DNA of 52,325 bases from an uncultured bacterium (GTDB lineage Bacteria; BMS3Abin14): the NCBI GenBank assembly GCA_965603295.1, contig CBFDCL010000002.1, forward strand, positions 1 to 52,325, in the 5' to 3' direction. This document shows, piece after piece, positions 46,442 to 49,133 of the stretch. The notes under the pieces are model-generated. The model worked only from the letters and a program-made list of their open reading frames with translations. It made no database searches and was not told the origin of the DNA. Each line of letters begins with the position of its first letter. The stretch's first letter is position 1. Made by a program: the position numbers and the translations under genes.

Positions 46442-46477
46442 TCTTTGTCGGGCTTTTAACCAAGGGGGGTGAAAGCC

Positions 46478-46492
46478 GTGATGTTGGTCTGA
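46478..46492 (+). other. Candidate leader mini-ORF GTG-ATG-TTG-GTC-TGA with strong SD (AAGGGGGGTGA, 46462-46472)
   Basis: Near-consensus extended SD 5-8 nt before GTG/ATG; the stop lies 11 nt before a terminator hairpin. Confidence 0.4.
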
Positions 46493-46503
46493 CAGTTTCG
46501 AAA

Positions 46504-46536
46504 GGGGGCCGGAGAGTTTCGGCTCCCCTGTTTTTT
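46504..46536 (+). terminator. Intrinsic-terminator-like hairpin in the 5' leader of the malic-enzyme gene
   Basis: GGGGGCCGGA-GAGT-TTCGGCTCCCC followed by TGTTTTTT; the SD GGGAGGGA follows immediately. Confidence 0.65.
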
Positions 46537-46544
46537 GGGAGGGA

Positions 46545-49133
46545 ATGAAGATGTCAGGCAGGAAAAGGAACAAGGCAGCCTCGGAGGTCCGGGACGGGGG
46601 CGAACATTATGGACTGGAACTGAGGCTCAAAAACCAGGGCCTGATCGGGGTCAGCGGGAAAGTACCGATCAAGGACGCTTCGGCTCTCAGCCTCCTTTAC
46701 ACTCCCGGGGTAGCCGCCCCGTGCCTGGAAATCGCTCGGTCCCCCATCCGTTCCTTCGACCTGACCTGCAGGGGAAACACCGTTGCCCTGATCAGCGACG
46801 GTTCCTCCGTCTACGGTCTCGGCGGTGCGGGTCCCGAATCGGCCCTGGCCATGCTCGAAGGGCGGTCTGTTTTTTTTAAGACCTTTGCCGGAGTGGATGC
46901 TCTGCCCATAGCCATCAAAACCCAGGATCCGGAAGAGATCGTCGAGATCGGCCTCCGCCTGGCCACTAGTTTCGGGGGGATCGTTCTCGAGGATATCGCC
47001 GCGCCAAAGTGTTTTACCCTGGAACGGAATCTCAAACTGGCCACGAGGATCCCGGTCTTTCACAACGACCAGCACGGGACCGCCATCACTGTCTACGCTG
47101 CCCTGATCAACGCCCTTAAAGTCGTCGAGAAAAAACTCGAAAAGGTGCGGATCGTCATCTCCGGTGCGGGTGCGGCGGGCATTGCCACGGCCAGGCTCCT
47201 TCTCGAAGCCGGCGCAAAGGACATTATCCTGTGTGACCGTTACGGTTCCATCTACAGGTATCGGACCCAGCCCCTGAACTGGGCCAAATCCGAGGTCTCC
47301 CTAAGGACGAACCTTGATCGTCGTGTGGGGAGCCTGGGGGACATGATGGTCGGGGCCGATGTTTTTGTAGGTCTTTCCGCTCCGGGGATCGTTTCCGCGG
47401 ATATGGTCCGGAGCATGGTTAAAGGGGCGGTTGTCTTTGCCATGGCCAACCCCGTGCCCGAGATCATGCCGGGCGAGGCTTTAAAGGCCGGAGCCGCGGT
47501 GGTGGGATCGGGAAGGTCCGATTTTCCCAATGAGATCAACTCGGCGGACATTGCCCCCGGGATCTTCAGGGGACTGTTGGATGTCCGTGCGTCAAGGATC
47601 ACGGAGACCACCTATCTTGCTGTCGCGCGAACCATCGCCGGGATGGTGCCGGAGGACAAGATCAACCCCAACTTCATCTTCCCGCGGATGTTCGATTTCC
47701 AGGTGGCGGCTAAGGTCGCCCGAACCACCGCCCAGACCGCCATTGAGAACGGGGACGCCAGGGTGGAGGTTTCCCCGGATGAGGTGGAGGCCAAAACACG
47801 GAAGATCGTATACGAAAACGAGTACACAGTTCTCCCTCCTCCCCCGCCCAGGAAGAAGAATATGAACATGCAGGAGGAGGCTATCGACCTTCATCACCGG
47901 TACCAGGGGAAGCTGGAGGTCCGTGTCAAGGTCCCCATCCGTGACGATTACATCCTGAACCGGGTTTACCTCCCTCCGGAAGCCGCCGAGGCCAGTATTC
48001 TTCTGTCACGGGAACCCGAGAAGGTCTACGACCTGACATGCAAGGCCAACCTGGTGGCCATCGTATCCGACGGAAGCGCTGTCCTCGGACTGGGGAATAT
48101 CGGTCCCAGGGCCGCCATCCCCGTAATGGAGGGAAAGGCTGTCATCTTCAGGGCGTTCGCCGGGGTGGAGGCGTTCCCGATCTGCGTCGGCACCCAGGAC
48201 GTGGACGAGATTGTCCATCTGGTCAAGGCTATCTCCACTACTTTCGGAGGGGTTAACCTCGAGGACATCTCCGCGCCGCGATGTTTCGAGATCGAGGAAC
48301 GTCTTAGAAAGGAGATCGACATCCCGATCTTCCACGACGACCAGCACGGTACGGCCGTGGTGACCCTGGCCGCTCTGAAGAATGCCCTTAAGGTCGTGGG
48401 CAAGGATCTCCCCGATGTCAGGATAACCATGGCCGGCGCGGGGGCCGCCGGGATCGCCGTGGCGAAAATCCTGCTGGTTGCCGGTGCCCGTGACATTATT
48501 TTGTGTGACGAGCACGGAACGATCTTCGAGGGAAGGGGAGAGAAGATGAACCGGGTGATGGAGGAGATCTCCCTCGTTACCAACCGGGAGGGGATCAAGG
48601 GGGATCTGGCTGCTGCAATGACAGGGGCCGATGTTTTCATCGGCCTGTCGGCAGGGGGGATCGTGAGCCGGGACATGGTCCGGAGCATGGGCGAAAGGGC
48701 CGTTGTTTTCGCCATGGCCAACCCGGTGCCCGAAATCATGCCGGAGGAAGCCCGGGCGGGAGGGGCGGCAGTAGTGGCCACCGGCCGTTCCGATTTTCCC
48801 AACCAGGTTAACAATTCCATGGTATTCCCGGGGGTCTTCCGCGGGGCTCTCGATGTCAGGGCCCGGAATATCAACGTCCAGATGAAGATCGCGGCGGCCG
48901 AGGCCATTGCCGGTTTCGTGGGGGAGAAGGATCTTTCCCCCGATTACATCATCCCCGCGGCGATGAACTTCAAGGTGCCCGCCTTCGTGGCCGCGGCGGT
49001 GGCCAGGTCTGCCATGGAAACAGGGGAGGCGAGGGTCCGCGTTTCCCCCGACGATGTGGTGGCCCAAACCCTCGAATACCTGTATGAAGGACACCTGAGA
49101 TACATCAAGGGAGCGTTAGAGGAAACGAAATGA
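46545..49133 (+). CDS. Tandem (double) malic enzyme: two fused MaeB-like ME units, no PTA domain
   Basis: Each half has SDG..V.GLG, EG[RK], LEDI, H[ND]DQHGT, GAGAAG, FAMANPVPEI, GRSDFPN; Pro-rich linker near 47833-47861; second unit starts near M440. Confidence 0.93.
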   Translation: MKMSGRKRNKAASEVRDGGEHYGLELRLKNQGLIGVSGKVPIKDASALSLLYTPGVAAPCLEIARSPIRSFDLTCRGNTVALISDGSSVYGLGGAGPESALAMLEGRSVFFKTFAGVDALPIAIKTQDPEEIVEIGLRLATSFGGIVLEDIAAPKCFTLERNLKLATRIPVFHNDQHGTAITVYAALINALKVVEKKLEKVRIVISGAGAAGIATARLLLEAGAKDIILCDRYGSIYRYRTQPLNWAKSEVSLRTNLDRRVGSLGDMMVGADVFVGLSAPGIVSADMVRSMVKGAVVFAMANPVPEIMPGEALKAGAAVVGSGRSDFPNEINSADIAPGIFRGLLDVRASRITETTYLAVARTIAGMVPEDKINPNFIFPRMFDFQVAAKVARTTAQTAIENGDARVEVSPDEVEAKTRKIVYENEYTVLPPPPPRKKNMNMQEEAIDLHHRYQGKLEVRVKVPIRDDYILNRVYLPPEAAEASILLSREPEKVYDLTCKANLVAIVSDGSAVLGLGNIGPRAAIPVMEGKAVIFRAFAGVEAFPICVGTQDVDEIVHLVKAISTTFGGVNLEDISAPRCFEIEERLRKEIDIPIFHDDQHGTAVVTLAALKNALKVVGKDLPDVRITMAGAGAAGIAVAKILLVAGARDIILCDEHGTIFEGRGEKMNRVMEEISLVTNREGIKGDLAAAMTGADVFIGLSAGGIVSRDMVRSMGERAVVFAMANPVPEIMPEEARAGGAAVVATGRSDFPNQVNNSMVFPGVFRGALDVRARNINVQMKIAAAEAIAGFVGEKDLSPDYIIPAAMNFKVPAFVAAAVARSAMETGEARVRVSPDDVVAQTLEYLYEGHLRYIKGALEETK

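What the first reader, a model, noticed from the sequence alone, without database searches (positions are those of the whole stretch)
46447..46545. Candidate attenuator or riboswitch with a 3-codon uORF controlling mae-glcD-glcF
Seen: the roughly 100-nt leader holds a GGCTTT/AAAGCC stem enclosing a strong SD, the mini-ORF (V)MLV-stop, and 11 nt later a GC-rich hairpin with a U-tract directly before the mae SD; loop ACCAA could pair with downstream TTGGT. Inference: a ribosome on the uORF would cover the 5' arm of the terminator and allow readthrough, while the first stem could gate ribosome loading in response to a ligand or protein. It matches no riboswitch class I recognise.
Basis: partly seen in the sequence, partly recalled or inferred. 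Interest (0 to 1): 0.62.

Follow-up and report, generated by a model that had tools for sequence, protein, structure and literature searches.

The report
Conserved terminator-like leader before malic-enzyme operon
The roughly 100-base stretch is the structured 5' leader of a malic-enzyme/2-hydroxy-acid oxidase operon, and its hairpin-plus-U-run just before the ribosome site is conserved in relatives and probably attenuates transcription, whereas the tiny upstream ORF is a species-specific accident and no known riboswitch is present.

Summary
Orthologous loci from the same uncultured phylum change the interpretation.

- **Promoter.** A sigma-70-type box with an extended -10 element (-35 at 46413-18, TGnTAATTT at 46433-41) is conserved in 27 of 34 orthologous loci. 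It puts the transcription start near 46448, so the element is a true 5' leader.
- **Conserved hairpins.** Stem 1 (P1) and the GC-rich hairpin (P2, 46504-27) recur in at least 13 related leaders. Paired positions change in ways that keep the pairs.
- **Most conserved block.** P2 plus the U-run is 89% identical to the closest relative with DNA, against 30-40% for the flanks.
- **Terminator strength.** P2/U6 (-17 kcal/mol) falls in the class of 70 strong terminator-like sites in this genome. That class is about 20-fold enriched between genes.
- **The uORF is not conserved.** It lies partly in a species-specific partial duplication, and the closest relative has none.
- **No known family.** Rfam gives no match, and the element occurs only upstream of mae.

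Best reading: a lineage-specific leader attenuator with ribosome-site occlusion, relieved by an unknown factor. No transcript data could be obtained. The true start codon is ATG 46551, not 46545.

The parts
46379..46408 (.). Inverted repeat CCTCGATATTTCCT / AGGAAATATCAAGG (14-nt arms, 2-nt spacer) directly upstream of the -35. It could be an operator or an insulating hairpin. Its role is unknown.
   Evidence: I2, 93% complementary. Inverted repeats of unrelated sequence occupy the same position in many orthologs.
46412..46441 (+). Conserved promoter box GTTGCCAAA-N-TTGGTGCTAATTT: -35 TTGCCA at 46413-18, a 17-nt spacer, and extended -10 TGcTAATTT at 46433-41. The predicted transcription start is about 46447-49.
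   Evidence: The box is present in 27 of 34 orthologous loci and absent only where mae directly follows another gene. The strict box is unique in the genome, while the generic TTGnnn-N14/15-TGnTAnnnT pattern is enriched between genes. The E. coli-style scan does not call it. The start site was not measured.
46450..46477 (+). P1, the stem-loop at the 5' end of the transcript: GGGCUUU with AAAGCC and a 15-nt G-rich loop. The MFE fold extends it to 46447-46482.
   Evidence: Homologous P1 hairpins occur in 10 other related leaders, with C-G/U-A/G-C exchanges at inner pairs.
46478..46492 (+). Mini-ORF (V)MLV-stop: GTG 46478 or ATG 46481, TGA 46490-92. It is window-specific and probably incidental.
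   Evidence: It is absent from all related leaders, including L229.
46486..46500 (+). Degenerate direct copy (12 of 15) of the P2 5' arm and loop (46507-21). This species-specific insertion replaces the U-rich linker of relatives. It is predicted to pair with the mae start region 46545-59.
   Evidence: D3; alignments; duplex -15.7 kcal/mol, z = -2.9 against a shuffled linker; MFE folds.
46504..46527 (+). P2, a 10-bp GC-rich hairpin (GGGGGCCGGA, loop GAGU, UUCGGCUCCC), dG about -17 kcal/mol. It is the conserved core of the leader.
   Evidence: P2 is conserved in 13 aligned leaders with G-C/G-U/A-U exchanges. The block 46501-36 is 89% identical to L229.
46531..46536 (+). U6 tract, 3 nt after P2 and directly abutting the SD. 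Together with P2 it forms an intrinsic-terminator-like signal.
   Evidence: The same TGTTTTTT is found in L229. Other relatives carry UCCUUUUCC.
46537..46553 (+). SD GGGAGGG (46537-43) and the true mae start codon ATG 46551-53.
   Evidence: the 860-aa gene call starts MSGRK.
46551..51938 (+). The controlled operon: a tandem (double) malic enzyme 46551-49133, a GlcD-like FAD oxidase 49130-50587, and a GlcF-like Fe-S/CCG subunit about 50541-51938.

Best explanation
The stretch is the 5' untranslated leader of the mae-glcD-glcF operon. A conserved sigma-70-type promoter with an extended -10 element starts transcription near 46448.

The RNA folds first into a 5'-terminal stem-loop (P1). It then forms a GC-rich hairpin (P2, 46504-27) followed by U6, which directly abuts the Shine-Dalgarno sequence.

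P2 plus the U-run is the conserved functional core. It acts as an intrinsic-terminator-type attenuator: by default a large share of transcripts end at about 46533-37, before mae. In transcripts that read through, the segment between P1 and P2 pairs with the ribosome-binding or start region, holding translation down as well.

Expression would need a trans-acting input that was not identified (an RNA-binding protein, a small RNA or a metabolite), or the terminator may simply be leaky.

Shown: the anatomy, its conservation and the terminator-class strength. Inferred: the start site, actual termination and any regulation. The mini-ORF is not part of the conserved mechanism.
For: - **Promoter.** The box is conserved in 27 of 34 orthologous loci and is missing only where mae directly follows another gene. 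The generic pattern is enriched between genes.
- **P1 and P2 recur.** RNAfold predicts both independently in 13 related leaders.
- **Pair counts.** On the alignment, 88% of cells pair against 83.7% in shuffles (0 of 500 shuffles as high). The covariation score is 0.262 against 0.170 (0 of 500), and 5 pairs change on both sides (3 of 500). Sliding the partners drops pairing to 60-65%. P1 inner pairs switch between C-G, U-A and G-C.
- **Conservation of P2+U6.** It is the most conserved intergenic block against the closest relative with DNA: 32 of 36 identical, compared with 30-40% for P1 and the linker and 67% for the promoter box.
- **Terminator scans.** The P2 site in that closest relative (L229) and the one in P18 (L212) are also called terminator-like.
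- **Terminator use in this genome.** Seventy sites reach dG <= -14 with at least 6 T in 7. Fifty-five of them are intergenic (about 20-fold enrichment) and 31 lie behind gene 3' ends. The window's site, at -17 kcal/mol with U6, belongs to this class.
- **Start-region occlusion in the window.** The window's linker pairs with the start region at -15.7 kcal/mol, z = -2.9.
- **SD occlusion in relatives.** L229 pairs AUUCCUU with its SD. The SD is mostly predicted paired in related leaders.
- **Single-copy element.** The covariance model finds only the mae leader in each genome.
- **Not an artefact.** An independent assembly of the same species has the identical leader.
Against: - No transcript data.
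- No conserved mutually exclusive antiterminator structure was found (inspection).
- In most related leaders the tail after P2 is AUCCUUUUCC, with a 4-nt spacer and only four U. That makes a weak terminator, and the tail could equally be an anti-SD or S1-binding tract.
- Other genera of the same family have unrelated leaders, very short ones or none. The element is therefore dispensable for the operon.
- The P2 stem is largely conserved in sequence, so its covariation support is modest.
- The linker-to-RBS duplexes of most relatives are no better than composition-matched shuffles.
Confidence: 0.5

Rival explanations
1. The leader is a stability and translation element with no meaningful termination. 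P1 at the 5' end protects the mRNA from 5'-end-dependent decay. P2 holds the anti-SD-like strand (CUCCCC or CUUUC) away from the SD. The U-run is a standby or S1-binding tract, or a weak cis anti-SD that tunes initiation.
For: - P1 starts within a few bases of the predicted start site in all related leaders.
- The pyrimidine tract after P2 is complementary to AAGGGAG, and the SD is predicted mostly paired in relatives (unpaired probability 0.02-0.5).
- The tail in most relatives is a poor U-tract.
- Other loci in this genome place a hairpin and U-run directly before an RBS.
Against: - In the window and in L229 the hairpin with U6 is as strong as the sites found behind gene ends in this genome.
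- U6 is conserved between these two species while the flanks diverged.
- A -17 kcal/mol hairpin followed by U6 is expected to terminate bacterial RNA polymerase to some degree (established knowledge of intrinsic terminators).
Confidence: 0.27
2. One reading: translation of the (V)MLV mini-ORF controls the operon. The ribosome would either hinder P2 formation, or melt the helix between 46487-99 and the mae start region 46545-59 and so unmask the start codon.
For: - A G-rich SD-like run lies 8-11 nt before GTG 46478 / ATG 46481.
- The ORF's last codon and stop lie in the 5' strand of a predicted -15.7 kcal/mol helix with the mae start.
- Two of the three substitutions that distinguish the duplicated copy from P2 improve that complementarity (inspection).
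Against: - No related leader has an SD-plus-mini-ORF, including the closest relative.
- The ORF has no regulatory codons and only 3-4 sense codons.
- The stem starts 11 nt after the stop codon, beyond a terminating ribosome's reach (established footprint sizes).
- About 0.5 eight-bp helices with at most one G-U are expected by chance in an RNA of this length (my estimate).
Confidence: 0.06
3. The leader is a new metabolite-sensing riboswitch. P1, an extended interrupted hairpin in relatives, binds a ligand such as malate, lactate or glycolate and switches P2 or the RBS on.
For: - A conserved, highly structured leader sits upstream of a catabolic operon that is plausibly substrate-induced.
- The default fold looks OFF at both the transcription and translation levels.
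- P1 has a conserved inner helix (UGU.../...ACA) and a partly conserved loop.
Against: - No Rfam match.
- There is no multi-helix junction or block of invariant unpaired nucleotides.
- The P1 loop is truncated and different in the window and in L229.
- No alternative pairing links P1 to P2 in a conserved way.
- The element is restricted to a few genera of one small phylum and missing from sister genera that carry the same operon.
Confidence: 0.06
4. The hairpins have no function of their own. They are leftovers of local duplication in a GC-rich, repeat-rich intergenic region, and the conservation reflects recent common ancestry.
For: - Intergenic regions of this phylum are full of hairpins and short-period repeats.
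- The window's linker arose by partial duplication.
- Leaders turn over quickly between genera.
Against: - P2+U6 is 89% identical while adjacent leader sequence is 30-40% identical in the same pair.
- Pairing is kept through base changes in 13 lineages whose mae proteins are only 75-86% identical.
Confidence: 0.08

Closest known systems
Rho-independent leader attenuators, that is, premature intrinsic terminators in 5' UTRs. Examples are the terminator platforms of T-box, PyrR or BglG/LicT-type systems and of transcriptional riboswitches.
   Same: A GC-rich hairpin plus U-tract lies between a promoter and the first gene of a metabolic operon, directly before the RBS, and is conserved across species.
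   Different: No conserved antiterminator alternative, no recognisable protein-binding motif (RAT, ANTAR hexaloops, PyrR box) and no aptamer were found. Regulation is entirely inferred.
Ribosome-mediated (leader-peptide) attenuation, as in trp, his and pyrBI
   Same: A short ORF with an SD lies upstream of a terminator hairpin in the window.
   Different: The ORF has 3-4 codons with no regulatory codons. It is absent from every relative, and its stop codon lies too far from the stem for a ribosome to cover it.
5'-terminal stem-loops that stabilise mRNAs, such as the E. coli ompA 5' UTR hairpin
   Same: P1 begins within a few nucleotides of the predicted 5' end and is structurally conserved.
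   Different: The 5' end is only predicted from a promoter box. No decay data exist.
SD-sequestering cis elements (fourU/ROSE-type thermometers and translational riboswitch platforms)
   Same: Pyrimidine or U-runs flanking P2 are complementary to the SD. In the window the linker pairs with the start codon region.
   Different: The predicted helices are weak in most relatives and no better than composition-matched shuffles. No link to temperature or ligand is known.

Membership tests
Any Rfam family (riboswitches, T-box, leaders, sRNAs) | A covariance-model match at or near the family's gathering score | tested here: not met
   cmscan at E <= 10 on window 45900-46800 gave no hit inside 46440-46560. 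The homologous leader of G014 gave none either.
Intrinsic-terminator leader attenuator | A stable GC-rich stem-loop followed within 0-3 nt by a U-rich tract | tested here: met
   The stem has 10 bp with 7 G-C pairs, dG about -17 kcal/mol, followed by CUG and U6. The same is seen in L229. Strong sites of this kind in this genome are about 20-fold enriched between genes and lie mostly behind gene ends.
Intrinsic-terminator leader attenuator | The terminator lies downstream of the transcription start and upstream of the regulated gene | tested here: inconclusive
   The conserved promoter box predicts a start near 46448, 56 nt before P2.
Intrinsic-terminator leader attenuator | A conserved alternative (antiterminator) structure that excludes the terminator | tested here: not met
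   RNAalifold and per-sequence folds show only P1 and P2. The possible pairing of the P1 5' arm with the P2 5' arm is broken in L133, L136 and P24 (inspection).
Intrinsic-terminator leader attenuator | Condition-dependent termination and read-through | not testable with these tools
   This needs Term-seq, in vitro transcription or reporters.
Leader-peptide (ribosome-mediated) attenuation | A translated leader ORF conserved among relatives, with codons that sense the regulatory signal | tested here: not met
   The mini-ORF is absent from all 13 related leaders and from L229. Its codons are M-L-V only.
Leader-peptide (ribosome-mediated) attenuation | A ribosome position on the leader ORF that overlaps a terminator or antiterminator strand | tested here: not met
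   The stop codon is at 46490-92 and the stem begins at 46504, leaving an 11-nt gap. From established footprint sizes, a ribosome at the stop reaches about 46501-02.
CsrA-regulated leader (GGA motifs at the SD and upstream) | The genome encodes CsrA | tested here: not met
   PF02599 has no match in G000, which is 98.8% complete. Control genomes gave matches.
Sigma-54 promoter (alternative reading of the conserved box) | Conserved GG at -24 and GC at -12 (TGGCAC-N5-TTGC) | tested here: not met
   The would-be GG varies (TGATG, TAATG, TAGTG) and the -12 GC is absent across orthologs.

The most novel reading that the evidence does not exclude
The P1-P2 leader is a previously undescribed ON-switch for malate or 2-hydroxy-acid catabolism in a small uncultured phylum. 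A metabolite, or a dedicated RNA-binding antiterminator protein, would act on P1 or the linker to suppress termination at P2/U6 and unmask the ribosome site.
Probability: 0.12. Interest if true: 0.65.

Novelty: new member of a known kind. Interest (0 to 1): 0.33.

Why it matters
If P2/U6 terminates transcription, this operon is controlled at the RNA level by a leader element that no database describes. The operon encodes a double malic enzyme and a GlcD/GlcF-type 2-hydroxy-acid oxidase next to a LarA-family racemase. The host is a candidate phylum known only from metagenome bins, with 16 species genomes held. The case also gives that phylum a first promoter and leader model. In practical terms it corrects the mae start codon. 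It also explains why gene callers extend several orthologs into the leader. The mechanism class, a leader hairpin or terminator, is ordinary, so the value is mainly as a new candidate cis-regulatory RNA motif and as a caution against reading function into tiny uORFs.

Tried and rejected
- **Rfam.** No match in the window or in a relative's leader.
- **Dispersed element.** BLAST against the window's own genome and its relatives found copies only of the upstream repeats (query positions 30-250), never of the leader.
- **Regulon.** The covariance model R1 finds only the mae leader in all 16 genomes of the family and phylum.
- **Leader translated as an N-terminal extension.** Callers annotate MTWGPVFLG..., MIRLSIFSKGAIM... 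and MPRLSYFSKGVVM... in three relatives. This is rejected because other relatives have stops or frame shifts in the same stretch (L133 TAG, P18 TAA, L141 TGA).
- **CsrA target.** The genome has no csrA.
- **Sigma-54 promoter.** The -24 and -12 dinucleotides are not conserved.
- **RNA pairing inside the promoter box.** GCCAA with UUGGU pairs only in the window, not in relatives, so the box is a DNA-level signal.
- **GntR/FadR-type operator.** TGGTCTGACA at 46485-94 resembles, from memory, LldR-type sites, and two FCD regulators exist in the genome. The motif lies in the window-specific insert and is absent from relatives, so it remains only a weak lead.
- **Hairpin as the larA terminator.** It lies 374 nt after larA and downstream of the conserved promoter. 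A separate weaker terminator-like site sits at 46336-55.
- **Closest relatives.** Two of them (P0002 and P0003, 85-86% identical) had no retrievable DNA.
- **Alignment limits.** MAFFT could not put the P1 arms in common columns, so P1 covariation was counted with my own end-anchored script.
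Full report
**Observation**

- Stem 1: GGGCTTT 46450-56 pairs with AAAGCC 46472-77. The G-run AAGGGGGGTG sits in its loop.
- Mini-ORF: GTG 46478 / ATG 46481, then TTG GTC, then TGA 46490-92.
- An 11-nt gap follows. Then comes a 10-bp hairpin, 46504-13 with 46518-27, followed by CTG and T6 at 46531-36.
- SD GGGAGGG lies at 46537-43.

The consensus scan ranks the hairpin first. The 121-nt leader folds at -46.5 kcal/mol, z = -2.5. An independent ENA assembly of the same species carries an identical leader, with all three differences in the 450 nt upstream of mae falling in the repeats further upstream. 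The sequence is therefore real.

**Gene context**

The downstream ORF is a tandem malic enzyme with two malic/Malic_M units. A GlcD-like FAD oxidase and a GlcF-like Fe-S/CCG protein follow. Upstream lie a LarA-family gene, a periplasmic binding protein and a PdxA-family gene.

The mae start is ATG 46551, not 46545. ATG 46551 lies 7-8 nt after the SD, aligns with every orthologous start, and is the start of the 860-aa gene call.

**It is a true leader**

I collected orthologous mae loci from several sources:
- the 16 species genomes of the family, which are also the whole phylum as held here;
- genome and metagenome collections;
- contigs that encode close homologues.

Of 34 aligned upstream regions, 27 carry the same box, GTTGCCAAA-N9-(A/T)TGGTGnTAAttt. 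This reads as -35 TTGCCA, a 17-nt spacer and an extended -10 TGnTAnnnn. In the window the -35 is at 46413-18 and the -10 at 46436-41, which predicts a start near 46448 at the foot of stem 1.

The box is missing only where mae directly follows another gene (G009, UBA11853 and relatives). The strict box is unique in the genome. The generic extended -10 pattern is enriched between genes and upstream of genes on the same strand. The variable would-be GG rules out a sigma-54 reading.

**Conserved leader architecture**

Leaders differ strongly between genera, and some are short or absent. One subtype is shared by the window, genus g5 (G005, G014) and at least ten metagenomic lineages (L132, L133, L136, L138, L141, P18, P19, P22, P23, P24). 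Its layout is:
- P1 directly after the predicted start;
- a pyrimidine or U-run;
- P2, GGGAGCCG-N7/8-CGGCUUUC;
- four bases, then UUUU, then CCAAGGGAG as the SD.

RNAfold recovers P1 and P2 independently in nearly every sequence.

Pair counts on the 13-sequence alignment:
- 88% of cells are paired, against 83.7 +/- 1.2% in shuffles (0 of 500 shuffles as high).
- The covariation score is 0.262 against 0.170 (0 of 500).
- Five pairs change on both sides (3 of 500).
- Sliding the partners by one column drops pairing to 60-65%.

P1's GGC:GCC core is invariant, while its inner pairs switch among U-G, C-G, U-A and G-C (92 of 5000 shuffles do as well). P2 varies mainly through G-C, G-U and A-U exchanges. 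The support for RNA structure is therefore real but moderate.

The model built from this alignment finds only the mae leader in each genome: G014 at 1e-19, G005 at 4e-18, the window at 3e-9 and G011 at 3e-4. Nothing else scores below E of about 0.2. The element is a single-copy cis element, not a regulon or a repeat.

**The closest relative**

L229 has a mae protein in the cluster of P0002, which is 86% identical to the window's protein. It has the same promoter box and an almost identical P2 and tail, AAGGGGGCCGGgGAGaTTCGGCT-CCCTGTTTTTT.

By segment, identity to the window is as follows:

| Segment | Identity |
|---|---|
| P2+U6 | 89% (32 of 36) |
| Promoter box | 67% |
| P1 | 39% |
| Linker/uORF region | 30% |

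P2/U6 is thus the most constrained part of the whole intergenic region. The scan also calls L229's hairpin terminator-like. P18's P2 passes the same permissive criteria.

L229 has no mini-ORF. In its place is AUUCCUUUUUGGGA, whose AUUCCUU pairs with the SD AGGGGGU in a very stable predicted fold (-49.4 kcal/mol, z = -3.2, 0 of 200 shuffles).

**The uORF**

The window differs from all relatives by a roughly 21-nt insertion. This is a degenerate copy (12 of 15) of the P2 5' arm and loop, 46486-500 against 46507-21 (alignments). It replaces the U-rich linker and supplies the uORF's last codon and stop.

No relative has an SD-plus-mini-ORF. Where upstream ATG or TTG codons exist, they lack an SD, or the frame is interrupted in sister lineages.

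A ribosome terminating at 46490-92 would protect to about 46501-02 (established footprint sizes), which is short of the stem at 46504. The uORF-covers-the-terminator model is therefore not supported.

One window-specific point remains open. The inserted segment is predicted to pair with the mae start region, 46487-99 with 46545-59 (-15.7 kcal/mol, z = -2.9). A translating ribosome could in principle unmask the start codon. With no conservation, and with about 0.5 such helices expected by chance (my estimate), I rate this low.

**Is P2/U6 a terminator here?**

I scanned the whole genome (2.3 Mb, laid) for perfect stems followed by a T-rich tail.
- Seventy sites reach dG <= -14 kcal/mol with at least 6 T in 7.
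- Fifty-five of them lie in the 15% of the genome that is intergenic, about 20-fold enrichment.
- Thirty-one lie behind a gene's 3' end in the sense orientation.

The organism therefore appears to use canonical intrinsic terminators, and the window's site (-17 kcal/mol, U6) belongs to that class.

Several other loci place such a terminator directly before an RBS: C7:28325, C42:2762, C93:6264 and C27:13406. The arrangement is not unique in this genome.

In most relatives of the shared subtype, the tail after P2 is weaker (AUCCUUUUCC). It is also complementary to the SD, which is predicted mostly paired. There, P1 often carries the better U-run, with U5 to U9.

**Mechanism**

The best-supported reading is a leader attenuator. 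P2 and the U-run stop a share of the transcripts that start at the conserved promoter. Pairing of the linker or pyrimidine tracts with the SD or AUG keeps read-through transcripts poorly translated. An unidentified input, or simple leakiness, sets expression.

What argues against it:
- no conserved antiterminator structure;
- weak tails in most relatives;
- absence of the element from sister genera;
- no transcript data.

The main rival is a stability and translation element without meaningful termination. A riboswitch, the uORF model and non-function are minor rivals. CsrA control is excluded because the genome has no csrA.

**Known families**

No Rfam family matches. A literature search for a malic-enzyme leader or attenuator found nothing.

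The element works like an intrinsic-terminator leader. It cannot be filed under leader-peptide attenuation, T-box, ANTAR, RAT or any riboswitch class, because the defining features were tested and not met, or are absent.

**Verdict**

This is a new member of a known kind, of moderate-to-low interest.

Noticed in passing
window 46545-46553: The mae start codon is ATG 46551 (MSGRKRNK...), not ATG 46545. The SD GGGAGGG ends 1 nt before 46545 but 7 nt before 46551, and all orthologous starts align with 46551.
   Followed up: yes
window 46379-46408; L229 338-369; L004 about 91-124; L026; L212-L218: Inverted repeats of unrelated sequence lie directly upstream of the -35 in many orthologs. In several (G005, P18, P23) the repeat contains an inverted copy of the box itself (TTTGGCAAC...GTTGCCAAA). 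Their function is unknown. They might be insulating hairpins or terminators for the upstream gene, or operators.
   Followed up: partly
window 46100-46335: The region holds short-period degenerate repeats: a 7-nt period AAATCCA at 46167-95, CTAATCA at 46254-83, and a 14-nt period at 46294-334. Pieces of them occur many times in this genome and in other genomes of the phylum, always in similar low-complexity intergenic stretches. Orthologous loci carry analogous repeats with other units (TTGGACTT, CACTCTGCA, GTCGTCA, CCGATCA).
   Followed up: partly
G000 contigs C7:28325-28353(-), C42:2762-2790(+), C93:6264-6293(+), C27:13406-13430(+), C52:10887-10916(+): Strong hairpin-plus-U-tract terminators sit 5-25 nt before an SD and start codon at several other loci. 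This suggests frequent intercistronic or leader attenuation in this organism.
   Followed up: partly
window 46551-49133: The 860-aa tandem (double) malic enzyme is not rare. More than 6000 proteins of similar length match at E <= 1e-100, mostly annotated as NADP-dependent malic enzyme, in Chloroflexota, Thermodesulfobacteriota, NC10, Megasphaera and others.
   Followed up: partly
relatives P0019, P0022, P0025 (L213, L214, L216): Gene callers extend mae by 12-23 residues into the leader (MTWGPVFLGAGLIRFSSFYKGVVM..., MIRLSIFSKGAIM..., MPRLSYFSKGVVM...). The P2 loop there happens to hold an in-frame ATG or TTG. Stops or frame shifts in sister lineages show that the stretch is non-coding.
   Followed up: yes
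window 46485-46494: TGGTCTGACA resembles, from memory, GntR/FadR-type (LldR-like) operator half-palindromes. The genome encodes two GntR-FCD regulators, on C20:10032-10397 and C5:27439-27798. The motif is inside the window-specific insert and is not found in relatives.
   Followed up: partly
whole genome / phylum: The phylum that holds this genome is represented by only 16 species genomes in one family, all metagenome bins of 1.5-3.2 Mb. All 14 that contain the locus have the tandem malic enzyme.
   Followed up: no
window 45967-46040: There is a weak RAGATH-31 match (21 bits against a gathering score of 71.8, E = 0.28) inside the larA coding region. It is almost certainly chance.
   Followed up: no
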